Shown: one piece after another, positions 5,907-31,026 of the stretch
Position numbering within the stretch: the first letter of the stretch is position 1
Layout: each line of letters starts with the position of its first letter
Source of the DNA: an uncultured Candidatus Saccharibacteria bacterium
GTDB lineage: Bacteria; Patescibacteriota; Minisyncoccia; Minisyncoccales; PWPS01
Assembly: GCA_964557305.1 (NCBI GenBank)
Contig: CAZKZM010000068.1
Span: 1 to 32,295, forward strand
Direction of reading: 5' to 3'
DNA: 32,295 nucleotides
The notes under the pieces: generated by a model
The model's input: the letters and a program-made list of their open reading frames with translations, nothing else
Told to the model about the DNA's origin: nothing
Database searches by the model: none
Program-made: the position numbers and the translations under genes

Positions 5907-6527
5907 ATGTTTTTCAAAAAAAGTATTATAAAAATAAGAGATGTTGAGTTCCAAGAACCAAATGCTATTGATAAAGCGTTAGACAGATTTTTTCTATTTG
6001 CACTTCCAAAGTTTGTCACTCCTAATCATCTTACAATTCTTAGATACATCACTGTTCCAATTGTTTTCTTTCTTCTACTTTATCAGTACTACTTCTGGGG
6101 CTTGCTTCTTTTTGTATTTTCAGCGTTTACTGACGCCCTTGATGGTGCATTAGCAAGAACAAGAAGAAAGATAACGAACTGGGGAAAGATTAATGATCCG
6201 TTAGCAGACAAACTTTTAATAGGATTTTCAGGATTAGTTATTGTCAGTAAGTATATAGGATTAGAAATTATTACAGTAATTATTGTTCTTGAGTTGTTAA
6301 CAATTGTTGCTGCTTTGATTTTTTATGAAAAGAAAGAAAACACAGGAGCAAAACTTCCAGGAAAGATAAAGATGGTTTTTCAGTCATTGGGAGTGGGATT
6401 TCTTCTTGTTTATGCTGTTCAGGGCGTTCCAGCTATCTTATTAACAGCTACCATTTTTTTATACATATCAATATTTTTTAGTATATTTAATCTCTTGTTT
6501 TGTTTGTTTATTTCAAAGTCAATATAA
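5907..6527 (+). CDS. CDP-alcohol phosphatidyltransferase family protein
   Basis: Perfect D-x2-DG-x2-AR-x8-G-x3-D-x3-D motif (DALDGALARTRRKITNWGKINDPLAD) in a polytopic membrane protein. ATG at 5907 is preferred over TTG at 5892. Confidence 0.9.
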   Translation: MFFKKSIIKIRDVEFQEPNAIDKALDRFFLFALPKFVTPNHLTILRYITVPIVFFLLLYQYYFWGLLLFVFSAFTDALDGALARTRRKITNWGKINDPLADKLLIGFSGLVIVSKYIGLEIITVIIVLELLTIVAALIFYEKKENTGAKLPGKIKMVFQSLGVGFLLVYAVQGVPAILLTATIFLYISIFFSIFNLLFCLFISKSI

Positions 6528-14928: not shown

Positions 14929-14959
14929 CCATTTTTACACCCCTGGGGTGTAAAAATGG
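14929..14959. repeat. Palindromic repeat, copy 1 (CCATTTTTACACCCC-T-GGGGTGTAAAAATGG)
   Basis: Perfect palindrome centred on nt 14944. It ends 5 nt from the topA stop codon. Further copies are at 17327-17361 and 27818-27852. Confidence 0.9.
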
Positions 14960-14963
14960 GGGG

Positions 14964-17048
14964 TTATTTTTCTTGTTTTGGGTTTTTATTGGAGATGAAT
15001 TTGCAGTCGGGATAGCGAGAGCATCCGTAAAAAATATTTCCTTTTTTTGCTCTTCTTTTTACAACATCTCCTTCTCCGCACTCTGGACACTTCATATCAA
15101 TATCATCATCTTTGATTGACTTTATATTTTTACACTCGGGATAGTTTTCGCATCCGTAAAATTTTCCAAAACGGCTCTGCTTTATCTTCATCTTTCCTTG
15201 ACACTTGTCACAAATTACTTCTTCTTCAGATTCTTTCTCTTTTTCTTCTTCAGTAATAAGTGGTTTTGAGTTTTTACAATCAGGAAAGTTTTTACACGCC
15301 ATAAACTTTCCATACCTCCCCATTTTTATAACCATTTCCCCGCCACATTTTTCGCATTTTTCGTTTGTTTTTTCTTCTTGCATAATATCTTCTTTTTTAA
15401 GTTCTTTTTCTTTTACTTCTAATTGTTTTGCAAAATCTTTGTAAAAGTTAGCAATAATTTTTTTCCACTCTTTTTTTCCTTCAGCAACTTCGTCCAATCC
15501 TTTTTCCATCTCAGATGTGAACTTTCGATCAACAACAAAAGGAAAGTGTTTTGATAAAAGATCGTTAACAATCTTTCCAATCTCGGTTGGTTTCAGGTTT
15601 CTTTTTTCTATTTTCTCAAGATAATTTCTGTAAAAAAGAGTTGATAAAGTTGGAGCGTAAGTAGAAGGTCTTCCGATTCCGTTTTTTTCAAGCTCTTTAA
15701 TTAAAGTTGCTTCTGTGAACCTTGCTGGTGGCTTTGTAAAGTGTTGTTCAGTTAGTATCTCTTTTAAGGATAACTTTTCTTTTTCTTTTACTTCCGGAAG
15801 TTCGTTTTCTTGAAACTTAACAGGATAAACTTTTGTAAATCCACTGTGTTTTAAAACCGAACCAGAGCTTGAAAGAAGATATTTGTCTTTATTTTTTGCA
15901 TCTATGTCAACTGTAGTGCTGTAAAAAACAGCTTCACTCATAAGAGAAGCGGTAAATCTTCTCCAGATAAGGTCGTATAATTTTTTTTCTTCTTCTTTTA
16001 ATCCTTTAACGTTTTCAACTGTTTTTTCAGGATAGGCTGGTCTTACTGCTTCGTGAGCTTCTTGTGTTTTTCCCTTGCTTTTAAAAGAGGTTCCCCTATA
16101 GTAATCTTTTCCAAAAGTTTCAGTTATATATTTTTTCCCAGCAGTTACTGCTTGTGAAGAGAGGTGAACGGAGTCGGTACGGTGATAAGTAATAAGTCCT
16201 TTTTCATACAAAGATTGAGCAACACTCATTGTAAAGCGAGAAGGAAATCTTAATCTTTTAAACGCTTCTTGTTGCATTGTGCTGGTGGTAAAAGGAGGAG
16301 AAGGGTTTCTCTTCTTTTCTTTTTTACTTACTGAACTAACAATAAAAGAAGCATTTTTCAGATCTTCTTCTATCTCTCTTGCTTGTTTTTCGTTTTTTAT
16401 ATCAAGGCGAGCTATTTTTTTACCGCCAACTTCTTTTATTCCGGCGGTTAAGCTTCCTTTTTCAGCGTCAAGAACAGCATCAACGCTCCAGTACTCCTCA
16501 GCATTAAATTTTTCTATCTCTTCTTCTCTGTCACTTACTATTTTAAGAGCAACGGACTGAACCCTTCCCGCCGAAAGTCCGCGAGCCACTTTTTTCCAAA
16601 GAAATGGTGATAATTTATATCCAACAACTCGGTCAAGAACTCTCCGTGCTTGCTGGGCGTTGACTAAATCTACATCTATTTTTCTTGGATTTTTTATTGC
16701 TTCTTCAACAGCACTTTTTGTTATCTCATTAAAAGAAACTCTTTTATAATCTTTTAAATCTAAAATAAAAGCAAGATGAAAAGAGATCGCCTCTCCTTCG
16801 CGATCAGGATCAGTGCTGAGATAAACTATATCAGCTTTTTTTGCAGCTTCTTTCAGTAGTTTAATGTTTTTCCTTGCTCTTGTTGGGATTACATACTGTG
16901 GCTCAAAATCATTCTCAACATCAACTCCCAACTTGCTTTTTGGAAGATCACGAACATGCCCTCCAGAAGCAAGGACTTTGTAATCTTTCCCCAGAAACTT
17001 TTCCAAGGTTTTCGTTTTAGTTGGACTTTCTACTAATACTAAATACAT
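14964..17048 (-). CDS. topA: DNA topoisomerase I
   Basis: TOPRIM N-terminus (LVESPTKTKTLEKFLG), active-site Tyr region GLITYHRTDS, and three C-terminal C4 zinc ribbons. Confidence 0.97.
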   Translation of the reverse strand: MYLVLVESPTKTKTLEKFLGKDYKVLASGGHVRDLPKSKLGVDVENDFEPQYVIPTRARKNIKLLKEAAKKADIVYLSTDPDREGEAISFHLAFILDLKDYKRVSFNEITKSAVEEAIKNPRKIDVDLVNAQQARRVLDRVVGYKLSPFLWKKVARGLSAGRVQSVALKIVSDREEEIEKFNAEEYWSVDAVLDAEKGSLTAGIKEVGGKKIARLDIKNEKQAREIEEDLKNASFIVSSVSKKEKKRNPSPPFTTSTMQQEAFKRLRFPSRFTMSVAQSLYEKGLITYHRTDSVHLSSQAVTAGKKYITETFGKDYYRGTSFKSKGKTQEAHEAVRPAYPEKTVENVKGLKEEEKKLYDLIWRRFTASLMSEAVFYSTTVDIDAKNKDKYLLSSSGSVLKHSGFTKVYPVKFQENELPEVKEKEKLSLKEILTEQHFTKPPARFTEATLIKELEKNGIGRPSTYAPTLSTLFYRNYLEKIEKRNLKPTEIGKIVNDLLSKHFPFVVDRKFTSEMEKGLDEVAEGKKEWKKIIANFYKDFAKQLEVKEKELKKEDIMQEEKTNEKCEKCGGEMVIKMGRYGKFMACKNFPDCKNSKPLITEEEKEKESEEEVICDKCQGKMKIKQSRFGKFYGCENYPECKNIKSIKDDDIDMKCPECGEGDVVKRRAKKGNIFYGCSRYPDCKFISNKNPKQEK

Positions 17049-17276: not shown

Positions 17277-17326
17277 AAGAAGGGTGCAGGAATAACAATG
17301 GAATGTGCAGGAATGACAGCACTGCT

Positions 17327-17361
17327 CCCCATTTTTACACCCCTGGGGTGTAAAAATGGGG
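17327..17361. repeat. Palindromic repeat, copy 2 (CCCCATTTTTACACCCC-T-GGGGTGTAAAAATGGGG)
   Basis: Perfect 17-bp arms around nt 17344. Confidence 0.9.
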
Positions 17362-17368
17362 GGTTTGG

Positions 17369-23536: not shown

Positions 23537-26500
23537 ATGATTTCAAAAATTGAAAAAAGAAACGGAGAAGTTGTAGATTTTGATGTTCAAAAAATTGAAA
23601 GCGCAGCATATAAAGCGCTTACTTTTACGAAAAAGGGGGACAAAGATGAAGCGAGAGTTATTTCTGATAAAGTTTTAGAGGTTCTTCTTCAAAGATTTAG
23701 CAGGGAAGAAGTCCCTACCGTTGAAGATATTCAAAACATCGTTGAAGAGGTCTTAATAATGGAAGGATTTACAGACACTGCTCGTAGTTATATTCTTTAC
23801 CGGGAAAAAAGAAGAGAAGTGAGGGATGCGATGACACAGTTAGAAGATTCAAGTGAAATTATTGAAAAATACATAGATGAGATTGACTGGGAAGTGAAAG
23901 AAAACGCGAATATGACATACTCTCTTCAAGGACTAAATCAACACGCAACCTCTCATATTTCAAAAAAATACTGGCTTAACAAGATTTATCCTTACGAGAT
24001 AAGAGAAGCAGCAAAAAATCAGGATTTTCATATTCACGACCTAAATCTGCTCGCTACTTACTGTTGCGGGTGGGATCTGCAAGATCTTCTTCTCCGAGGA
24101 TTTGGAGGAGTTCCATCAAAAATAGAATCAAAACCACCAAAACATTTTCGTCCAGCGCTGGGACAGATTGTAAACTTTTTCTTTACTCTTCAAGGAGAAA
24201 GTGCAGGTGCACAGGCGATGAGCAACTTTGACACTTTCCTTGCTCCTTTCATCAGATACGATAATTTGGACTACAAACAAGTAAAACAGTCCTTACAAGA
24301 GTTTTTGTTCAACTGCATGGTCCCAACCCGCGTAGGATTTCAATGTCTCTCGGAAGATACTGAGATTTTAACTAAAGATGGGTGGAAAAAACACAACGAA
24401 GTGAAACAAGGAGATGTTATAAAAACATTTAATACTGAAGAAAAAATAATTCAAGAAAAACAAGTAAAAAAAGTATTTTCAAAAGAATATGAAGGAAAGA
24501 TGTACTCTGTTTCAAACAGAATTCAAGATCAGTTAATCTCTCCTCATCACAGAATGGTGAGAAAGAAGTTTAACAGTGAAAGATATGTACTTGAAGAAGT
24601 TGAAGAAGTGTTAAAACTTAAAACACCACAAACGATTCCGATAGCTGCTGACAATAAAAACAAAGCAATTGATATTACCAACGAAGAGATAAAGTTGGTT
24701 GCTTGGATTGTCTCTGAAGGAAGTATGGAGTCAAAAGTTAACTGGAGAAGAATAGTAATTTATCAATCAGAAAAGAAAAACAAAGAAAAGTACGAAGAAA
24801 TTCTTGCTCTTTTAGAAATTCTTGGAATTAAATACACAACACAAGAAGGATCAAAATCCCTTGGCGATGTTGTGATGCAGATAAGATTTAACTCTGAAGA
24901 AACACAAAAGATATTAGATCTTTTTGACACGAAAGATAGTGTGAAAAAAATCCCATCAAGGTTCTTAGAGATGAGTCAGAAACAAAGCAGGGTTTTCTTG
25001 GAAACATACATCAAAGGAGATGGTCACGAGGGATCAAAGATTACCGTTTCTGATAAAGAAACTTTGAGAGATCTTCAAAGAATAATAGTTAACTCTGGAT
25101 ATGGATTTACAACTTCTAAAAGAAAGTCATCGGGTGTAGGGAAGAAGATGCTTTATATTATTAGAGTTATTCGTCATCAAGAAACACACATCACTAAAAT
25201 AAAAGAAGTTGATTACAAAGGATTTATATGGTCTGTTAATACTGACAACGAAACAGTTATTGCAAAAAGAAAAGGAAAGGTTTTCATAACAGGGAACACG
25301 CCTTTTCTAAATGTTTCGTTGGATGTTAAGATTCCTGAGTTTTTGAGAAACCAACCGATTATTATTGGTGGTGAAGCGAAGAGAGAAACATATGGAGAGT
25401 TTCAGAAAGAAGTTGATATTTTCAACAAAGCTTTTTACGAGTGCTTAATGGAAGGAGATTCAAAAGGAAGAGTTTTCACTTTTCCAATTCCAACAATTTC
25501 TATTGCCAAAGATTTTGATTGGGACAACAAAGCTCTTGATCCGATGTGGGAAGCAACCGCAAAGTACGGAATAAATTATTTTTCAAACTTTATTCAGTCC
25601 GATATGAACCCCGAGGATTTTAGAAGTATGTGTCCACTTGACAGAAACGAAAAGGTCTTAATCAGATCAAAAAGAGGAAGAGGATTAGAGTATTCTAGTA
25701 TAGGATTTATCTGTGAAGGACGCGCTAAAGAAAACGAATATGAAGTTTATAGTGATGGAAAGTTTATAAAAGGAAGATTCAACAAGTTCCCTAATCAGAA
25801 GATGATGTTGGTGGTTTTGAAAAATGGACACAAGATTAAGATGAGTGAAAATCACCTGAACTATGTGATGAAAGATTCTAAAAGTGCCATTGAAACATTA
25901 AAAGGAAAGGATCTTAAAGAAGGATTTTATCTTCCCTACTCTTTAAATGTTTACGAAGGAGAAGGAGGAAACAAGGATTTAGGGTATTTTGTTGGTGCTT
26001 TTGCCGGTGATGGTTCCTTTGATGGAGATGGAAGCGTTGTATTTTCATTAGAGCAAGAAAGAAAAAAAGAGATAATATCAAAAATAATAAAAATATCAGA
26101 AAAATATTTTGGAGCTCATTACTCAACCAAAAAAGACCCTAAAACGAAATTATTTACATTAAAAATTCATTCACGAGCGGCTGTTGGCTTGTGTAAAGAT
26201 TTTATTGCCAATAAAAAAAGAGAAAAACATTACAAAGCAAGGATTTTTGGAACAAGTGTAGAGTTTAGAAAAGGAGTGCTGAAGGGTCACTATGAGACCG
26301 ATGGCGGAAATAAAAACAGAACATATACTTCATCTAAGAGAATGGTTGAAAGTATAAATATGCTTAATGCTACATTGGGAAAAACGACAAGCATATACAA
26401 AGACGACAGAGAGGGAAGATTGGGAAGTGAGCCAAATTATGCAGTTAGAGCGTATAGTTTTGCCAATAAAAAATATGGAGATATCTGGTTCAAGAAGAAA

Positions 26501-27493
26501 GAAAAAGTATGGGTTCAGATAAAGTTAATAAAAAAGATCAATAAAATTAGTGTGGCATACTGTTTTGAAGTAGAAAATGGAGAGCCCGTTTTTACAGTTG
26601 GAACAACAGGAATCCTTACGCACAACTGCCGACTTAGGTTGGATAACAAGGAGTTGATAAAGAGAGGGGGAGGGCTTTTTGGCTCACAACCACTTACTGG
26701 TTCAATTGGTGTTTGTACAATTAACTTGCCACGAATAGGATATTTGTCAAAAACAAAAGATGAGTTTTATAGTAGATTAGGAGCGGTGATGGATCTTGCA
26801 AAAGAAAGCTTAGAGATAAAAAGAAAGGCCGTAGATAACTTTATTGAAAAAGGACTATATCCTTATTCCAAACACTATCTTAATTCTGTGAAAAAGATGC
26901 GTGGCTCTTATTTTGGAAATCACTTTTCAACAATCGGTCTTATCGGAATGAACGAATCGCTTTTAAATTTTATGGGAGAAGGGACTGGTTCTGAAGAAGG
27001 AAGAAAGTTTGCAGTAGAAATTCTTGACTTTATGCGTGACCGACTTGTTGAGTATCAAGAAAAAACAGGAAATCTATACAACTTAGAAGCAACTCCGGGA
27101 GAAGGGTGTTCTTACCGCCAAGCGAGTATAGACCGAGGAAGATACCCAGATATTATAACAGCAGGAACAAAAGAAAATCCGTACTACACAAACTCTATTC
27201 ACCTTCCGGTTGGATACACTGATGATCCGTTTGAAGCACTTGATCTTCAAGATGAACTGCAACAAAAATTTACTGGAGGAACGGTGTTTCACTTGTTCTT
27301 GGGAGAGAGAATGGCTACTGCTGAAAGCGCAAAAGGTCTTGTAAAAAAGGTATTAAACAACTATCATTTACCATACATAACAATAACACCTACTTTTTCT
27401 GTTTGTCCTAACTGTGGATACTTAAAAGGAGAGCAGTTCTACTGCCCTAATTGCAAAATAAAAGGTCCAAAGAAGATTATAAAAAATATTTAA
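23537..27493 (+). CDS. nrdD: Anaerobic (class III) ribonucleoside-triphosphate reductase with an ATP-cone and two inteins, lacking the glycyl-radical loop
   Basis: ATP-cone at the N-terminus. Extein motifs are GFQ/TPFLNVSLD, RSM/CRLRLD, NLEATPGEG, GGTVFHLFLGE and LPYITITPTFSVCPNCGYLKGEQFYCPNC. The ORF stops 12 codons after the second CxxC, before any RxxGY loop. Confidence 0.93.
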   Translation: MISKIEKRNGEVVDFDVQKIESAAYKALTFTKKGDKDEARVISDKVLEVLLQRFSREEVPTVEDIQNIVEEVLIMEGFTDTARSYILYREKRREVRDAMTQLEDSSEIIEKYIDEIDWEVKENANMTYSLQGLNQHATSHISKKYWLNKIYPYEIREAAKNQDFHIHDLNLLATYCCGWDLQDLLLRGFGGVPSKIESKPPKHFRPALGQIVNFFFTLQGESAGAQAMSNFDTFLAPFIRYDNLDYKQVKQSLQEFLFNCMVPTRVGFQCLSEDTEILTKDGWKKHNEVKQGDVIKTFNTEEKIIQEKQVKKVFSKEYEGKMYSVSNRIQDQLISPHHRMVRKKFNSERYVLEEVEEVLKLKTPQTIPIAADNKNKAIDITNEEIKLVAWIVSEGSMESKVNWRRIVIYQSEKKNKEKYEEILALLEILGIKYTTQEGSKSLGDVVMQIRFNSEETQKILDLFDTKDSVKKIPSRFLEMSQKQSRVFLETYIKGDGHEGSKITVSDKETLRDLQRIIVNSGYGFTTSKRKSSGVGKKMLYIIRVIRHQETHITKIKEVDYKGFIWSVNTDNETVIAKRKGKVFITGNTPFLNVSLDVKIPEFLRNQPIIIGGEAKRETYGEFQKEVDIFNKAFYECLMEGDSKGRVFTFPIPTISIAKDFDWDNKALDPMWEATAKYGINYFSNFIQSDMNPEDFRSMCPLDRNEKVLIRSKRGRGLEYSSIGFICEGRAKENEYEVYSDGKFIKGRFNKFPNQKMMLVVLKNGHKIKMSENHLNYVMKDSKSAIETLKGKDLKEGFYLPYSLNVYEGEGGNKDLGYFVGAFAGDGSFDGDGSVVFSLEQERKKEIISKIIKISEKYFGAHYSTKKDPKTKLFTLKIHSRAAVGLCKDFIANKKREKHYKARIFGTSVEFRKGVLKGHYETDGGNKNRTYTSSKRMVESINMLNATLGKTTSIYKDDREGRLGSEPNYAVRAYSFANKKYGDIWFKKKEKVWVQIKLIKKINKISVAYCFEVENGEPVFTVGTTGILTHNCRLRLDNKELIKRGGGLFGSQPLTGSIGVCTINLPRIGYLSKTKDEFYSRLGAVMDLAKESLEIKRKAVDNFIEKGLYPYSKHYLNSVKKMRGSYFGNHFSTIGLIGMNESLLNFMGEGTGSEEGRKFAVEILDFMRDRLVEYQEKTGNLYNLEATPGEGCSYRQASIDRGRYPDIITAGTKENPYYTNSIHLPVGYTDDPFEALDLQDELQQKFTGGTVFHLFLGERMATAESAKGLVKKVLNNYHLPYITITPTFSVCPNCGYLKGEQFYCPNCKIKGPKKIIKNI
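24344..25297 (+). mobile_element. Intein 1 (318 aa) with a LAGLIDADG homing-endonuclease domain
   Basis: It starts CLSEDTEILTKDG. Block B is LISPHHRM. LAGLIDADG-like motifs are KLVAWIVSEGSM and FLETYIKGDGHEG. It ends VFITGN with Thr at +1, and splits the conserved GFQ-TPF extein motif. Confidence 0.85.
25631..26626 (+). mobile_element. Intein 2 (332 aa) with a LAGLIDADG homing-endonuclease domain
   Basis: It starts CPLDRNEKVLIRS. Block B is MSENHLN. LAGLIDADG motifs are LGYFVGAFAGDGSF and VLKGHYETDGG. It ends GILTHN with Cys at +1 (CRLRLD). Confidence 0.9.
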
Positions 27494-27503
27494 CAAAAAA
27501 AAT

Positions 27504-27812
27504 ATGAGTAAAAATATATTTTCTACAAAAAAACAAGCAGTTGAGGCAAGAAAGTGTTTTGATTGTGGGTGTGACATAAAGATTGAAGATAAAGACATTA
27601 AAAATGGAGTTCTCTTAGAGTATGAAGATAACGACGAGCAACTTTTTGCGATGAAGTGTGACGATTGTTACAAAAAAAACGAAGGAATCTCTAATTACAA
27701 AAAGTGCGAAGTTTACTCAAGAATAGTAGGATATCTCCGTCCAGTTCAAAACTATAATCCAGGCAAAAAACAAGAGTACGAAGAAAGAAAGGAATACACT
27801 GCAAAGGTGTAA
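27504..27812 (+). CDS. Stand-alone NrdD C-terminal module: Cys4 ribbon plus glycyl-radical loop
   Basis: 102 aa with CFDCG...CDDC, then EVYSRIVGYLRPVQNYNPGKKQEYEERKEY, the class III RNR glycyl-radical signature. It starts 10 nt after the nrdD stop, in a different frame. Confidence 0.85.
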   Translation: MSKNIFSTKKQAVEARKCFDCGCDIKIEDKDIKNGVLLEYEDNDEQLFAMKCDDCYKKNEGISNYKKCEVYSRIVGYLRPVQNYNPGKKQEYEERKEYTAKV

Positions 27813-27817
27813 ATACA

Positions 27818-27852
27818 CCCCATTTTTACACCCCAGGGGTGTAAAAATGGGG
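27818..27852. repeat. Palindromic repeat, copy 3 (CCCCATTTTTACACCCC-A-GGGGTGTAAAAATGGGG)
   Basis: Perfect 17-bp arms around nt 27835, starting 6 nt after the stop at 27810-27812. Confidence 0.9.
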
Positions 27853-27906
27853 TGTAAAAAACCATTCGGAGCAGGGTTATACTCCGGCGGGAATCTCCGT
27901 GAATTT

Positions 27907-28097
27907 AATTTCAAATTTCAAATTTCAATTGAATAACCAAATGAACAAATGACTAAATCCCTTAAAAAGAATCTTCGATTCTTTACGGGACAAGTCTTAA
28001 AACAACTCACGCATAGCTTTGTGATTATGTGTTTTAAAATTTAAACATTTAGAAATTTGAAATTGATTTGAAATTTGAAATTTGAAATTTGAAATTC
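27907..28097. repeat. Inverted heptamer arrays (aatttca x3 vs gaaattt x6) flanking a roughly 120-nt core
   Basis: The left array is at 27907-27928 and the right array at 28051-28097, reverse-complementary to each other. An inner 8-bp hairpin aaagaatc-ttc-gattcttt is at 27966-27984. Confidence 0.85.
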
Positions 28098-28192
28098 TTG
28101 CAAGATTTCCACTGGAATTTTACACTGTTTCGAATGGTGTGGGGTGGGAATGATAGAGTATTACTATCTATTAGTGTAAAAATATTTATTTT

Positions 28193-28891
28193 ATGAAAAT
28201 TGGTGGATTACAAAAACTAACGCTTATTGACTATCCGGGGCAAGTTGCTTGCACTGTTTTTCTTGCTGGTTGTAATTTTCGTTGTCCGTGGTGTTACTCG
28301 GCAGAGCTTGTTTTGCCCGAAAAAATTGAAAATCAAGCAGAAGTAGAAGAAAAAGAATTTTTCAGATTTTTAGAAAGAAGAAAAAACACTCTTGATGGCG
28401 TTGTTATTTGTGGAGGAGAAGCAACAACAAACGCTTCGCTTCCTGAGTTTATAAGAAAGATAAAAGAAAAAGGATTTAAAGTAAAACTTGATACCAACGG
28501 CTCTAATCCACAAATGTTAATTCATCTTCTTGAAGAAAAGTTACTGGATTATATTGCGATGGATGTTAAAAATAGCTTTGATAAGTATAGTCAGACGGTG
28601 GGAGTTGATTGTGATGTTGAAAAGATAAAAAAAAGCATTGATGTTATAAAAAACTCAGAAGTTGATTACGAGTTCAGAACAACAGTGGTTCCAGGAATTC
28701 ATGAAGAAGAAGACATTGAAAAGATAGGAGAAGCATTAAAAGGAGCAGAAAAGTATTTTTTACAAAATTTTCTTCCTGAAAAAACAATTAACGGAGGATT
28801 CATAGAAAAAACACCATTTTCCAAAGAGAAGCTTGAAAAGTTAAAAGAAAAAGCAGCTCCTTTTGTGAAAAAATGTGAGACAAGAGGATAA
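28193..28891 (+). CDS. nrdG: Anaerobic ribonucleotide reductase activating protein (radical SAM)
   Basis: CNFRCPWC cluster motif near the N-terminus, GGEAT, and a length and layout typical of the NrdG2 type. Confidence 0.9.
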   Translation: MKIGGLQKLTLIDYPGQVACTVFLAGCNFRCPWCYSAELVLPEKIENQAEVEEKEFFRFLERRKNTLDGVVICGGEATTNASLPEFIRKIKEKGFKVKLDTNGSNPQMLIHLLEEKLLDYIAMDVKNSFDKYSQTVGVDCDVEKIKKSIDVIKNSEVDYEFRTTVVPGIHEEEDIEKIGEALKGAEKYFLQNFLPEKTINGGFIEKTPFSKEKLEKLKEKAAPFVKKCETRG

Positions 28892-28909: not shown

Positions 28910-28940
28910 GTGCCGACTTTTCAGTCGGCACTTTTGTTTT
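28910..28940 (+). terminator. Rho-independent terminator after nrdG
   Basis: Stem gtgccgac / gtcggcac with loop ttttca, followed by ttttgtttt. Confidence 0.8.
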
Positions 28941-28995
28941 GACTTTTATTTTATTTGTTTTATTATTAAGTAATATCAATATAATTTTTTTATAT

Positions 28996-29664
28996 ATGAA
29001 GATTTTATTTGTTTCTTACTCAAGAACAGGAAATACTCAAAAAACAACGGAGAAAATAAAAAAAGAGTTAAAAGAACGAGGACACGAAGTAGTTACAGAA
29101 AAAATTAAATTAAAAAAAGAGCTTGAATCAAGGTGGTTAGTTCTTTTTGATATAAAAGTGACACTTAGTTACTTTTTGGGGCTTGCCTTGAGAAAAGACA
29201 TTTTACCCAGAAGAGAAATTGAGCCAGTTTCTTTTCCAAACATATCACAGTTTGACAGAGTTTGTATAACAACTCCCAAGTGGGGCAGTGTTCCTCCACA
29301 GATATGTAAATATATTGATATTGTTGAAGGATTGGAAGGAAAAAAAGTTGCTGTTTTTTCCTCTTACTACTGTCCTCCCTATAAATACATTGAGTTGAAG
29401 GCGATTTTTGGACCGTTAAAGAAAATGATAAGCAAAAAACAAGGAGAAGTGACTGTAATGATGGGTGCGACTACCGATTTTCTTGAAAGAGGAATTAAAT
29501 CGTTTAAAGCAGTAATATGGATTCTTAATCTGGTCAGGTTTGGAAAGCCATTTCCAAAAGATTGGCGAGACAGATCACCATACTTTATATCAGAAAAGTT
29601 TAAACCAGTAGCTCCTTACAAGGAAGAAGCGATCAAGTTGTTTTGTGATAAAATTGAAAATTAA
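28996..29664 (+). CDS. Flavodoxin-like fold protein
   Basis: MKILFVSYSRTGNTQKTTEKIKKEL is an FMN-loop-like N-terminus, and ITTPKWGSVPP is a second loop. ATG at 28996 is preferred over the upstream alternative start at 28939. Confidence 0.65.
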   Translation: MKILFVSYSRTGNTQKTTEKIKKELKERGHEVVTEKIKLKKELESRWLVLFDIKVTLSYFLGLALRKDILPRREIEPVSFPNISQFDRVCITTPKWGSVPPQICKYIDIVEGLEGKKVAVFSSYYCPPYKYIELKAIFGPLKKMISKKQGEVTVMMGATTDFLERGIKSFKAVIWILNLVRFGKPFPKDWRDRSPYFISEKFKPVAPYKEEAIKLFCDKIEN

Positions 29665-29676
29665 AAAAAATAAAAG

Positions 29677-31026
29677 ATGAAAATTTTAGTTGCTTACTAC
29701 TCCCGTACAAAAGGAACAGAAAAATTAGCAGATGTTTTGATTAAAAAAATTAGAGATTCAGGACATTCTGTTGATGTTGAAAAAATAAAACCACAAAAAG
29801 AACACAGTTGGTTTTTTTGGTTTTTTATTAGAATCTTTAAAGGAAGTTGCAAGATTAAACCCTTGAAAATTAAAACAGCAGAAGATTATGATCTGGTTTT
29901 AGTTGGAAGTCCTAACTGGACGCGAGTTTCCTTGCCAGTGGGAGGATATATCAAAGAAGTGAAAGGAATAAGATACAGAAATGTTGCGCTTTTTTCTACT
30001 ACTTTTGCTCCTCCTGCTCTTGAGTGGTATATTCTTTCAGCATACTTGCTTGATCTGAGTTTTGCGAAGATGGTTGAGAGAAAACACGGGAGAGTGGTTG
30101 ATTATCTTATTCTTTCAAGTTTTTTTAAAAAATGGAGTTTTGAATCTGATTATGGAGAGAATATGATCAGTGATTTTTGTAAAAAAATTACTTCTCCGAT
30201 AACTTCTTTTAAAAAATACTTTTTAAGACAAAAAGAAGTTGACAATCTTCGCTTTTTAGCGGTCTTAACCTCATTTTTCTTTTTTTCAAGTATTTTTGCA
30301 GTAGCTTTTTTGAAAGTTATTAATATTGACATTTCTTGGGAAGATTACCTTTGGATCGGGATTGTTCTTTTCTTAACTTTTATTCTTTTAACCCTTGTTC
30401 GGGACAACAAAAGATTTTTCTTTTTAGCAAAATATATTCCAAGCGTTTCGTTTGTTTTTCTTTGGACAATGCTTGTTTCTCACTTTGCATTAGATTTAGG
30501 GACGGGGCGTTTAATGATATTAGGATATATTTTTATTTTCGTTCTTTTTTCTTCTTTTCGTGACGAAAAAGTGGTTGCTTTTTCAGGAGCGTTTACTCTT
30601 TTGTCGTATGTTTTTTTGTTTTATTTTTCGCTAGAAAAACAAGTTTTTAATTTGTTTTTAGATATGTCTTTGATATTTGCCAGTTGTGTTCTCTTTATTA
30701 TCTTTACCAACACTTTTCGTGAGTATTACCTGACTTTATTAAACTCTCAAGATGAAGTTGAAAAATCACGAAAAGGATTAGAAGAAAAAGTTAAAATAAA
30801 AACAAAAGAGTTGAAAGAGCTGAACGAAAACCTAGAAAAAGAAGTTGAAAAAAGAACTGAAAAAATAAAAGAGCAGAGCACTGACTTAGAAAAGAAAGTA
30901 AACCACTTAGAAAAGTTCAACAAACTAACGATTGGAAGAGAGAACCGAATGAAAGAATTAAAAGAAGAGATAGAAACACTAAAAAAAGAAAAACAAGAGT
31001 TGGAAGAAAAGTTAAATGAAAAATAA
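29677..31026 (+). CDS. Fusion protein: flavodoxin-like domain, about 6 TM helices, then coiled-coil GRE-motif tail
   Basis: The N-terminus MKILVAYYSRTKGTEKLADVLIKKI...LVGSPNWTRVSLP is paralogous to 28996-29664. The middle 190 aa or so are hydrophobic. The tail is LEEKVKIKTKELKELNENLEKEVEKRTEKI...LEKFNKLTIGRENRMKELKEEIETLKKE. Confidence 0.75.
   Translation: MKILVAYYSRTKGTEKLADVLIKKIRDSGHSVDVEKIKPQKEHSWFFWFFIRIFKGSCKIKPLKIKTAEDYDLVLVGSPNWTRVSLPVGGYIKEVKGIRYRNVALFSTTFAPPALEWYILSAYLLDLSFAKMVERKHGRVVDYLILSSFFKKWSFESDYGENMISDFCKKITSPITSFKKYFLRQKEVDNLRFLAVLTSFFFFSSIFAVAFLKVINIDISWEDYLWIGIVLFLTFILLTLVRDNKRFFFLAKYIPSVSFVFLWTMLVSHFALDLGTGRLMILGYIFIFVLFSSFRDEKVVAFSGAFTLLSYVFLFYFSLEKQVFNLFLDMSLIFASCVLFIIFTNTFREYYLTLLNSQDEVEKSRKGLEEKVKIKTKELKELNENLEKEVEKRTEKIKEQSTDLEKKVNHLEKFNKLTIGRENRMKELKEEIETLKKEKQELEEKLNEK

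What the first reader, a model, noticed from the sequence alone, without database searches (positions are those of the whole stretch)
27404..27812. Split class III RNR: glycyl-radical loop encoded on a separate 102-aa ORF with its own zinc ribbon
The nrdD ORF runs through the usual ...TPTFSVCPNCGYLKGEQFYCPNC ribbon and then stops 12 codons later, without the R-x-x-G-Y radical loop that normally follows. The next ORF starts 10 nt downstream in a different frame. It encodes a second C-x2-C...C-x2-C ribbon followed by a textbook loop, EVYSRIVGYLRPVQNYNPGKKQEYEERKEY. The radical-bearing module, together with the ribbon that in characterised NrdD is needed for radical generation, is therefore a free-standing polypeptide. 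The closest analogy is GrcA/YfiD, the autonomous glycyl-radical spare part for pyruvate formate-lyase. An equivalent for ribonucleotide reductase would be notable.
Basis: partly seen in the sequence, partly recalled or inferred. Interest (0 to 1): 0.8.

Follow-up and report, generated by a model that had tools for sequence, protein, structure and literature searches.

The report
Split anaerobic RNR, detachable radical subunit
In this candidate-phyla-radiation bacterium, the oxygen-sensitive glycyl-radical tip of the anaerobic ribonucleotide reductase sits on its own conserved 102-residue protein, and that protein belongs to a large, undescribed family that looks like the ribonucleotide-reductase counterpart of the GrcA/YfiD "spare part" known so far only for pyruvate formate-lyase.

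Summary
nrdD (23537-27493, two inteins) ends after a complete CPNC-x9-CPNC ribbon plus 12 codons. Ten nt later, in frame +1, a 102-aa ORF (27504-27812) encodes a second four-Cys ribbon plus the RIVGY loop. nrdG follows.

It is not an artefact. Eleven species-representative genomes and one metagenome contig share the layout. The gap is 2-22 nt and all three relative frames occur. dN/dS is 0.04-0.07 in the two class A pairs measurable. Truncated NrdD and small proteins each form one clade nested among fused Patescibacteria NrdDs.

The same small protein occurs in three other settings:
- beside a full-length NrdD, with its loop segment kept near-identical to NrdD's at nucleotide level;
- in 15 genomes away from nrdD, mostly next to PerR, rubrerythrin, superoxide reductase or dismutase, or hemerythrin. 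Four of those MAGs hold a full-length NrdD+NrdG elsewhere;
- in phage and archaeal-virus contigs.

Chloroflexota and other lineages carry other split forms without the extra ribbon.

Pfam, NCBIfam and PHROGs have no family for it. Reviews from 2021 and 2026 state that spare-part proteins are known only for formate-lyases.

Best reading: an obligate two-piece class III RNR with a replaceable radical subunit. Biochemistry is untested.

The parts
23537..27493 (+). nrdD-N: class III RNR catalytic subunit precursor (1318 aa) with ATP-cone, barrel and Zn ribbon but no glycyl-radical loop
   Evidence: Pfam NRDD 534 bits and ATP-cone. NCBIfam NF006126 947 bits, matched only to profile position 648/684. 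The extein is collinear with fused relatives.
24344..25297 (+). intein 1 (aa 270-587, LAGLIDADG type), inserted after ...TRVGFQ; the C-extein starts TPFLNV
   Evidence: Alignment with intein-free NrdDs. Pfam LAGLIDADG_3 and NCBIfam intein_Nterm hits, the latter just below its cut-off.
25631..26626 (+). intein 2 (aa ~699/700-1030), inserted at the finger-loop Cys pair (RSM-C...THN-CRLRLD). The exact N-terminal junction is ambiguous by one residue.
   Evidence: The Pfam Intein_splicing hit is below its cut-off. The same allele occurs in L010 and L083.
27404..27454 (+). NrdD ribbon CPNC-x9-CPNC. It has four Cys, whereas fused relatives have C-x2-H...C-x2-C.
   Evidence: All 11 class A loci have CxxCGY and all fused relatives have CPxHGY.
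27455..27493 (+). basic tail KIKGPKKIIKNI plus TAA. PKKIIKNI occupies the positions of PCEVYSRI in fused NrdDs, so the ORF stops two residues before the radical Gly position.
   Evidence: MAFFT alignment. Conserved tails in class A loci.
27494..27503 (+). 10-nt A-rich intergenic spacer with no Shine-Dalgarno motif
27504..27812 (+). small subunit: a 102-aa autonomous glycyl-radical protein of NrdD type
   Evidence: Pfam NRDD 41 bits, profile 510-562/562. 88 homologues. dN/dS 0.068 against L010.
27555..27668 (+). N-terminal four-Cys ribbon module of the small protein (C18, C21, C52, C55)
   Evidence: The four Cys are invariant or nearly invariant in 61 sequences. AF2 predicts a beta-hairpin ribbon with pLDDT ~85. 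The metal is unknown.
27705..27743 (+). glycyl-radical loop CEVYSRIVGYLRP (Gly76 codon at 27729-27731)
   Evidence: YSRIVGYLRP is invariant in the family. It aligns with T. maritima NrdD residues 612-645.
27814..27856 (.). perfect 21-nt-arm hairpin directly after the small ORF; the motif is repeated elsewhere in the window
27861..28138 (.). ~280-nt element with terminal inverted repeats (MITE-like) separating the small ORF from nrdG. In relatives the two genes abut or overlap.
28193..28891 (+). nrdG: radical-SAM activase
   Evidence: TIGR02495 NrdG2, 218 bits against a cut-off of 131.

Best explanation
The locus encodes a two-piece class III (anaerobic) ribonucleotide reductase.

After two inteins splice out, the large ORF gives a ~669-aa catalytic core. 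It has an ATP-cone, the barrel with the finger-loop Cys, a self-sufficient four-Cys ribbon and a short basic tail. It has no radical glycine.

The 102-aa protein supplies the missing part in trans. NrdG, the radical-SAM activase encoded downstream, abstracts the H atom of Gly76 (inferred). The small protein's own ribbon probably serves as the recognition handle for NrdG. The loop and C-terminal helix then occupy the barrel where the cis loop of ordinary NrdDs sits, and the radical passes to the finger-loop Cys (inferred).

Oxygen destroys glycyl radicals by cleaving the chain at the glycine. A detachable radical subunit would therefore let the cell discard a 12-kDa piece and load a fresh one, rather than remake a 1318-aa two-intein precursor (inferred; the advantage is plausible but unproven).

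The small protein belongs to a wider family of NrdD-type autonomous glycyl-radical proteins. In relatives these coexist with full-length NrdD as likely spare parts under oxidative-stress control. Phages and an archaeal virus also carry them.

What is shown: the gene structure, its conservation under purifying selection, the genomic contexts and the homology. What is inferred: radical installation on the small protein, docking, and the repair or turnover role.
For: **Structure of the locus.**

**Conservation of the split.**
- 11 GTDB species-representative genomes plus L004 have truncated NrdD, a ribbon-type small ORF and NrdG in that order.
- The gap between the nrdD stop and the small-ORF start is 2-22 nt. 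The relative frame is 0, 1 or 2 in different lineages.
- Class A NrdD-N proteins and their small proteins each form one clade in NJ trees, nested among fused Patescibacteria NrdDs.
- dN/dS is 0.068 (window vs L010) and 0.040 (L016 vs L017) for class A, and 0.023 and 0.27 for two class B pairs. In the other pairs synonymous sites are saturated while pN stays 0.07-0.25.
- The exact protein is recorded on 7 contigs.

**Integrity of the catalytic core.** The extein aligns end to end with fused NrdDs. If intein 2 starts at Pro700 the finger-loop motif RSMCCRLRLD is restored, but this junction is ambiguous by one residue.

**Adaptation of the core.** Every class A NrdD has CxxC where every fused relative has CxxH. 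The tail PKK(I/V)(I/V)K(N/K) replaces PCEVYSRI and stops just before the Gly position.

**Family context.**
- L036 and L037 have a full NrdD, an adjacent small ORF and NrdG. The 93-nt loop segment is 88/93 and 86/93 identical between the paralogues within a genome, against 75/93 between orthologues across genomes. This indicates concerted evolution.
- 15 genomes have the small ORF away from nrdD. In 8 it follows, and mostly overlaps, a PerR-like gene. In most it is directly followed by rubrerythrin, SOR, SOD or hemerythrin.
- 4 of these MAGs hold a full-length NrdD+NrdG on another contig.
- Phage and archaeal-virus copies exist.

**Literature.**
- O2 cleaves glycyl-radical enzymes at the Gly, and GrcA/YfiD rescues PFL (PMC8683613, PMC12288474).
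- The NrdD Zn domain has been proposed to interact with NrdG (PMC4493059).
Against: - There is no biochemical evidence. Nobody has shown that a glycyl radical forms on the small protein or that the two pieces assemble.
- Structure prediction did not help. In the chimeric AF2 model the C-terminal part of the barrel and the loop have pLDDT <50. The isolated small-protein model has no significant PDB neighbour.
- I could not inspect whole class A genomes, so a second, full-length NrdD elsewhere in this organism is not excluded.
- Same-genome statements for class B rest on MAG binning.
- The junction of intein 2 leaves open whether the spliced finger loop has one or two Cys.
- No Shine-Dalgarno motif precedes the small ORF.
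- In this window a hairpin and a MITE-like insert separate the small ORF from nrdG.
Confidence: 0.72

Rival explanations
1. The small protein is only a spare part, or has some other accessory role such as radical storage or regulation of NrdG. It would serve a different, full-length NrdD encoded elsewhere in this genome, and the truncated nrdD here would be inactive or non-catalytic.
For: The same protein family does coexist with full-length NrdD in other genomes. Whole class A genomes could not be inspected.
Against: - The truncated NrdD keeps all conserved core motifs and is collinear with active-type NrdDs.
- It is conserved as a clade whose members are as little as about 70% identical over the last ~290 residues, always directly followed by the small ORF and nrdG.
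- It shows specific changes, CxxH to CxxC and a conserved basic tail, rather than decay.
- No second loop-bearing locus from any of the 11 class A genomes appeared in the scan, whereas 4 class B genomes yielded one.
- Patescibacteria genomes are small (established knowledge).
Confidence: 0.1
2. The two ORFs are joined during expression, by programmed +1 frameshifting or transcriptional slippage on the A-runs, by stop-codon read-through, or by protein trans-splicing. The cell would then make an ordinary single-chain NrdD with an inserted ribbon domain.
For: A-rich runs flank the stop (aaaaaatatttaacaaaaaaaaatATG). The small ORF's frame is open from 27483, giving an 8-nt overlap window.
Against: - Relatives have relative frames 0, 1 and 2, different gap lengths (2-22 nt) and different sequences around the stop. 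No single recoding mechanism fits them all.
- Stop codons lie in the small ORF's frame just upstream (27480-27482).
- No intein blocks sit at the junction. The residue before Cys68 is K, E, S, P, N or D in different members, never the conserved Asn an intein would need.
- The family also exists as truly free-standing genes far from any nrdD.
Confidence: 0.04
3. A sequencing or assembly indel, or a recent pseudogenisation of nrdD.
For: Homopolymer A-runs at the junction are error-prone.
Against: - The identical protein is recorded on 7 contigs.
- A 92%-identical NrdD fragment from another sample ends with the same tail (P0089).
- 12 diverged loci share the architecture.
- There is strong purifying selection on the small ORF, including its N-terminal module, which has no counterpart in fused NrdDs.
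Confidence: 0.02

Closest known systems
GrcA/YfiD of E. coli and Y06I of phage T4 (autonomous glycyl radical cofactors for pyruvate formate-lyase)
   Same: - A small free-standing protein carries a glycyl-radical loop and C-terminal helix that copy the C-terminus of a large glycyl-radical enzyme.
- It has an N-terminal part with no counterpart in the parent enzyme.
- It is presumably activated by the parent enzyme's radical-SAM activase.
- Relatives of the window protein coexist with the full-length parent enzyme, sit in oxidative-stress gene clusters, and occur in viruses, which parallels Y06I.
   Different: - The parent enzyme is class III RNR, not PFL, and there is no sequence homology to GrcA. 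Pfam finds only NRDD PF13597, not Gly_radical.
- The N-terminal part is a folded four-Cys ribbon rather than a disordered segment.
- In this window the parent enzyme lacks its own loop, so the small protein is obligatory rather than a spare.
Split ribonucleotide reductases of other classes: NrdJa/NrdJb (Pseudomonas and others) and phage Aeh1 NrdA-a/NrdA-b
   Same: An RNR catalytic chain is encoded by two consecutive ORFs that must assemble. In NrdJa/b the C-terminal piece also carries a Zn-finger module (PMC9669993).
   Different: - Those are class II and class I enzymes.
- Their split does not isolate the radical-bearing element.
- The Aeh1 split was caused by a homing endonuclease gene, and no such gene lies here (2-22 nt gaps).
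- The papers searched describe no split class III enzyme of this kind. Phage nrdD 'splits' in PMC3653736 are mostly attributed to introns, inteins or homing endonucleases.
Canonical single-chain NrdD/NrdG (T4, E. coli, T. maritima, P. copri)
   Same: It has the same barrel, finger loop, ATP-cone, Zn ribbon, RxxGY loop and NrdG partner. The closest fused relatives are up to 74% identical over the last 288 residues.
   Different: The loop is on a separate polypeptide that has an additional ribbon. The NrdD ribbon changed from 3Cys+His to 4Cys. NrdD ends within two residues of the Gly position, like the oxygen-cleaved form of a fused enzyme.

Membership tests
Class III RNR system (NrdD + NrdG) | Catalytic barrel homologous to NrdD, scoring above curated thresholds | tested here: met
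   Pfam PF13597 533.9 bits (cut-off 26.2). NCBIfam NF006126 946.7 bits (cut-off 548).
Class III RNR system (NrdD + NrdG) | Finger-loop catalytic Cys motif (SMCCRL in this clade) | tested here: inconclusive
   The motif is interrupted by intein 2. The spliced product is RSMCCRLRLD if the intein starts at Pro700, or RSMCRLRLD if it starts at Cys699. The same allele is conserved in L010 and L083.
Class III RNR system (NrdD + NrdG) | C-terminal glycyl-radical motif RxxGY on the same chain as the barrel | tested here: not met
   NrdD stops at 27493 before the motif. The motif is on the separate 102-aa ORF.
Class III RNR system (NrdD + NrdG) | Zn-ribbon (four ligands) preceding the loop | tested here: met
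   It is present twice: CPNC-x9-CPNC on NrdD, and C18/C21/C52/C55 on the small protein. Metal binding itself was not tested.
Class III RNR system (NrdD + NrdG) | Adjacent radical-SAM activase NrdG | tested here: met
   TIGR02495, 218 bits against a cut-off of 131, at 28193-28891.
GrcA/YfiD autonomous glycyl radical cofactors (IPR011140; Pfam Gly_radical) | Small free-standing protein consisting essentially of a glycyl-radical loop and C-terminal helix | tested here: met
   A 102-aa ORF with its own start and stop, conserved as a separate gene.
GrcA/YfiD autonomous glycyl radical cofactors (IPR011140; Pfam Gly_radical) | Sequence homology to the PFL C-terminus (Pfam PF01228) | tested here: not met
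   The Pfam and NCBIfam scans return only NrdD models. It is an analogue, not a member.
GrcA/YfiD autonomous glycyl radical cofactors (IPR011140; Pfam Gly_radical) | Coexists with an intact parent enzyme that has its own loop | tested here: not met
   This is not met in the window or in class A loci. It is met in relatives: L036 and L037 on one contig, and 4 MAGs with small-ORF locus + NrdD locus L026+L067, L024+L041, L025+L057 and L028+L072.
GrcA/YfiD autonomous glycyl radical cofactors (IPR011140; Pfam Gly_radical) | Restores activity to the oxygen-cleaved parent enzyme after activation by the cognate activase | not testable with these tools
   Requires anaerobic biochemistry and EPR.
Split RNR (genes in pieces: NrdJa/b, Aeh1 NrdA-a/b) | Two adjacent ORFs that together cover one RNR catalytic chain, conserved across relatives | tested here: met
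Split RNR (genes in pieces: NrdJa/b, Aeh1 NrdA-a/b) | The pieces assemble into an active enzyme | not testable with these tools
   The AF2 chimera was uninformative.

The most novel reading that the evidence does not exclude
A large, unrecognised family of NrdD-type autonomous glycyl-radical proteins, each a four-Cys ribbon plus the RIVGY loop, acts as an exchangeable radical cofactor for anaerobic ribonucleotide reductase. It would work in three ways. In many Patescibacteria it would be an oxidative-stress-regulated spare part for full-length NrdD. In phages and an archaeal virus it would be an auxiliary gene that keeps host dNTP synthesis running. In the window's lineage it would be the sole radical-bearing subunit of a genetically 'pre-cleaved' NrdD. 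This would be the first spare-part system outside the formate-lyases, and a class III RNR with a dissociable radical subunit, conceptually like the beta subunit of class I.
Probability: 0.55. Interest if true: 0.9.

Novelty: new variant of a known kind. Interest (0 to 1): 0.85.

Why it matters
- **It bears on an open question.** Glycyl-radical enzymes are irreversibly cut at the radical glycine by oxygen. The only known repair is GrcA/YfiD for pyruvate formate-lyase. Workers in the field have asked in print whether other glycyl-radical enzymes have spare parts (PMC8683613). A June 2026 review still says only formate-lyases do (PMC13450708). The family found here gives a concrete, testable candidate for the enzyme that makes all DNA precursors in strict anaerobes.
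- **The genomic signatures fit that role.** They include PerR, rubrerythrin, SOR, SOD and hemerythrin neighbours, gene conversion with the resident nrdD, and carriage by viruses.
- **The window offers a natural experiment.** In its lineage the radical domain of a class III RNR is physically separable. That could make it easier to study how NrdG recognises its substrate and how the radical domain moves in and out of the barrel.
- **It affects annotation.** These ~100-aa proteins are currently labelled 'hypothetical' or 'anaerobic ribonucleoside-triphosphate reductase'. In one case, ANMV-1, such a gene was read as evidence that a virus encodes an RNR.
- **It is relevant to ecology.** It bears on how ultra-small anaerobes with minimal genomes tolerate oxygen pulses.

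Tried and rejected
1. **Frameshift, read-through or sequencing error.** Rejected, because relatives use all three relative frames and varied gaps and the identical protein is recorded on 7 contigs.
2. **Split intein or trans-splicing.** Rejected. There are no intein blocks and no conserved Asn before Cys68.
3. **Pseudogene.** Rejected on dN/dS, on monophyly and on an intact collinear extein.
4. **AF2 of the small protein alone.** pLDDT 76, with a confident ribbon and an uncertain loop. Foldseek against the PDB gave nothing significant.
5. **PDB sequence search.** It matched only the loop, to T. maritima NrdD. The N-terminal module has no detectable solved relative. Whether it derives from an NrdD ribbon (Pfam aligns it to profile positions 510+) or is rubredoxin-like (similar Cys spacing) stays open.
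6. **Chimeric AF2 model.** I used spliced NrdD-N plus the small protein, with a fragment-based alignment. The allowed alignment gave pLDDT <50 for residues 530-670 and for the loop, so the model is uninformative.
7. **Rfam scan of the small-ORF/nrdG spacer.** Only a meaningless sub-threshold hit.
8. **The radical-SAM gene next to the class B small ORF in L007.** It is not NrdG.
9. **Link between class B small genes and NrdD on the 224-kb and 104-kb contigs.** I could not make it directly. It was made instead through 4 other MAGs and the 2 class A' contigs.
10. **PHROGs, Pfam and NCBIfam.** None holds a dedicated family for the small protein.
Full report
**1. The observation**

The window has 33.9% G+C. 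It carries ftsA-ftsZ, then nrdD at 23537-27493, a 102-aa ORF at 27504-27812, and nrdG at 28193-28891.

The nrdD product is 1318 aa. It matches NrdD models strongly, but only up to profile position 528/562 (Pfam) or 648/684 (NF006126). It ends ...TPTFSVCPNCGYLKGEQFYCPNCKIKGPKKIIKNI*.

The small ORF starts 10 nt after the TAA, in frame +1. Its frame is open upstream only to 27483. It encodes MSKNIFSTKKQAVEARKCFDCGCDIKIEDKDIKNGVLLEYEDNDEQLFAMKCDDCYKKNEGISNYKKCEVYSRIVGYLRPVQNYNPGKKQEYEERKEYTAKV. It matches the last 50 positions of the NrdD models.

It holds the only glycyl-radical loop in the window.

**2. Not an artefact, not a pseudogene, not recoding**

- The exact 102-aa sequence is recorded on 7 contigs. 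An NrdD fragment from another sample, 92% identical, ends with the identical tail (P0089).
- A search of 5.8 billion proteins returned 88 homologues, all 59-146 aa.
- A scan of one genome per GTDB species returned 11 loci with the same three-gene layout: truncated NrdD, ribbon-type small ORF, NrdG. These come from Paceibacterota, Nealsonbacteria and related MAGs. I call this layout class A. A metagenome locus, L004, adds one more.
- Across these loci the gap between the nrdD stop and the small-ORF start is 2-22 nt. The relative frame is 0, 1 or 2. The conserved feature is therefore termination followed by a new start, not a slippery site.
- dN/dS of the small ORF is 0.068 (window vs L010) and 0.040 (L016 vs L017) for class A, and 0.023 and 0.27 for two class B pairs. 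In the other pairs synonymous sites are saturated while pN stays at 0.07-0.25.
- C18, C21, C52, C55, C68 and YSRIVGYLRP are invariant or nearly so in 61 sequences.
- Once the two inteins are removed, the NrdD extein is collinear with fused, intein-free relatives over its whole length.
- In NJ trees the class A NrdDs form one clade nested among fused Patescibacteria NrdDs. Their small proteins also form one clade. This points to a single ancient truncation that has been maintained since.

**3. Anatomy relative to fused relatives**

The closest fused NrdDs are up to 74% identical over the last 288 residues. They read ...TFSICPxHGY-x7-CPKC-TIKQP-CEVYSRIVGYLRP.... Against that template, the window differs in three ways.

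- It keeps the whole ribbon, but with the His replaced by Cys. Every class A NrdD has CxxCGY and every fused relative has CPxHGY. Published Zn motifs are CxxxHx6CxxC in T. maritima and CxxCx14CxxC in T4 and E. coli (PMC4493059).
- It has PKKIIKNI where the fused proteins have PCEVYSRI, and then it stops, two residues short of the radical Gly. The genetically encoded core therefore resembles what oxygen cleavage at the Gly would leave behind.
- On the new polypeptide, the loop is preceded by a ~66-aa module with a short helix and a four-Cys beta-hairpin ribbon (AF2 pLDDT ~85). This module has no counterpart in the fused proteins and no detectable relative in the PDB.

**4. The same small protein in other settings**

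- **Class A' (L036, L037).** A full-length NrdD with its own loop is followed by the ribbon-type small ORF and then NrdG, all on one contig. The 93 nt that encode the loop and helix are 88/93 and 86/93 identical between nrdD and the small gene within each genome. The orthologues between the two genomes share only 75/93. The paralogous segments are therefore being homogenised, as would be expected if the small protein must fit the same socket as the cis loop.
- **Class B (15 species-representative genomes, plus L001-L003, L007-L008 and the P0063 contigs).** The small ORF lies away from nrdD.
  - In 8 loci it follows, and mostly overlaps, a Fur-family gene whose best matches are PerR models, though below their cut-offs.
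  - It is directly followed by rubrerythrin (L001, L025, L028, L029), superoxide reductase (L022), superoxide dismutase (L023, L024) or hemerythrin (L026, L031, L033, L034 and P0063).
  - Three loci lack such neighbours: L021, L027 and L032.
  - Four of these MAGs also contain, on another contig, a full-length NrdD with its own loop next to NrdG. The pairs, given as small-ORF locus + NrdD locus, are L026+L067, L024+L041, L025+L057 and L028+L072.
  - This is the literal GrcA-like arrangement. It is subject to the reliability of MAG binning.
- **Viruses.**
  - The IMG/VR scan gave dozens of contigs with stand-alone ribbon-plus-loop ORFs of 75-130 aa and no NrdD within 6 kb.
  - In L107 the gene sits between a PmgB-like head-morphogenesis gene and a tape-measure gene, within a module that also encodes tail sheath and tail tube. 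In L101 it is near primase and helicase genes.
  - In GenBank, the archaeal virus ANMV-1 encodes a 144-aa protein of this type, annotated 'anaerobic ribonucleoside triphosphate reductase'. The original paper took it to mean that the virus encodes an RNR (PMC4372165).
- **Other splits.**
  - Most Chloroflexota NrdDs in the scan are cut inside a long ribbon-to-loop linker. They are followed by a 50-70-aa loop-only ORF that has a Shine-Dalgarno motif, and then NrdG (L009; 20 loci).
  - Separate cases occur in Beckwithbacteria, Micrarchaeota and Iainarchaeum (L068, L075, L082).
- **Family size.** A profile search of 1.84 billion cluster representatives found 520 hits at E<=1e-10. The best 150 are all 42-159 aa.

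**5. Mechanism**

Established knowledge provides four premises:

- NrdG generates the glycyl radical on the C-terminal loop of NrdD.
- The loop has to leave the barrel to reach the activase.
- The Zn domain has been proposed to contact NrdG (PMC4493059).
- Oxygen cleaves glycyl-radical enzymes at the glycine, and GrcA/YfiD replaces the lost piece in PFL (PMC8683613, PMC12288474).

On that basis the most economical reading of the window is a two-subunit class III RNR. The 102-aa protein would be activated by NrdG, using its own ribbon as a handle. It would then insert Gly76 into the NrdD-N barrel next to the finger-loop Cys.

The arrangement makes the oxygen-labile part cheap to replace. That fits the oxidative-stress contexts of class B, the gene conversion in class A', and carriage by viruses.

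The NJ trees have uncertain roots. They are compatible with a history in which a free-standing radical-domain gene arose first as a spare part, and one lineage later lost the cis loop. The reverse order is not excluded.

Radical installation, docking and repair are all inferred. Nothing here tests them.

**6. What is known**

Pfam, NCBIfam and PHROGs contain no family for these proteins; the searches match only NrdD models (Pfam above its low gathering score, NCBIfam far below the curated cut-offs and PHROGs weakly, to the NrdD tail).

In the searchable literature I found:

- split class II (NrdJa/b) and class I RNRs (PMC9669993);
- phage nrdD genes interrupted mostly by introns, inteins or homing endonucleases (PMC3653736);
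- an earlier remark that spare parts for other glycyl-radical enzymes are possible but unknown (PMC8683613).

Searches that combined NrdD with 'autonomous glycyl radical', split, Patescibacteria or Chloroflexi found no description of this system. The library covers only open-access papers and bioRxiv, so an earlier mention elsewhere cannot be excluded.

**7. Limits**

- There is no biochemistry.
- The structural modelling of the complex failed.
- Whole class A genomes were not inspected.
- Same-genome claims for class B rest on MAG bins.
- The trees are NJ trees built on short alignments.
- The intein-2 junction leaves a one-residue ambiguity in the spliced finger loop.

**8. Verdict**

Following it led to a broader result: a likely NrdD-type counterpart of GrcA, for which this window represents the obligate, split extreme.

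- Novelty: new variant of a known kind (the autonomous glycyl-radical cofactor and the split RNR).
- Interest: 0.85.

Noticed in passing
window 24344-25297 and 25631-26626: nrdD carries two inteins. The second sits at the catalytic finger-loop Cys pair and has an odd junction: RSM-C-PLDRNE...THN-C-RLRLD, whereas intein-free relatives read RSMCCRLRLD. Either the intein begins with Pro or the spliced product loses one Cys. The same allele occurs in L010 and in a Chloroflexota NrdD (L083). A different intein allele (RSM|C...HN|CCRLRLD) occupies the neighbouring site in L004, L014, L054 and L065.
   Followed up: partly
window 27814-27856; also 14945-14964 and 17324-17364: A perfect 21-nt-arm palindrome (TACACCCCATTTTTACACCCC / GGGGTGTAAAAATGGGGTGTA) lies directly after the small ORF. 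The motif recurs at two other intergenic sites (5 matches against 0 expected), which suggests a REP-like or terminator-like repeated element.
   Followed up: partly
window 27861-28138: A ~280-nt element with terminal inverted repeats (27861-27896 / 28103-28138, plus AATTTCAAATTTCAA repeats) separates the small ORF from nrdG. In all relatives examined these two genes abut or overlap. It looks like a MITE-type insertion. Rfam finds nothing.
   Followed up: partly
L023, L024, L025, L031, L033 (class B small proteins): Several stand-alone small proteins end in a Cys pair (...KECC, ...KKDCC, ...KSCDC). This recalls the redox-active C-terminal Cys pairs of class I and class II RNRs.
   Followed up: no
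L009 and 20 loci (for example L050, L061, L070, L077): Most Chloroflexota NrdDs returned by the scan are split in a different way. NrdD ends inside a long linker after CPVHGY...CPYEH, and a 50-70-aa loop-only ORF (..VPCEVYSRIVGY..) with a Shine-Dalgarno motif follows, then NrdG. Fused versions with the same linker (L038-L040) are nested among them.
   Followed up: partly
L170 (KP703175.1, ANMV-1 virus) 5908-6342: The 144-aa 'anaerobic ribonucleoside triphosphate reductase' of this archaeal virus is only a ribbon plus a glycyl loop. The published inference that the virus encodes an RNR (PMC4372165) rests on this gene.
   Followed up: yes
L162 3226-6425 (IMG/VR contig): Permuted gene order: a 49-aa loop-only ORF lies immediately upstream of a loop-less NrdD that ends in the ribbon.
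   Followed up: no
window 28939-29664 and 29677-31026: Two ORFs downstream of nrdG give weak, sub-threshold flavodoxin-like N-terminal matches. They could be electron donors for NrdG.
   Followed up: partly
window 28193-28891: Public sources name this NrdG 'pyruvate formate lyase activating enzyme' and the small protein 'hypothetical protein'. Both names look like mis- or under-annotation.
   Followed up: yes
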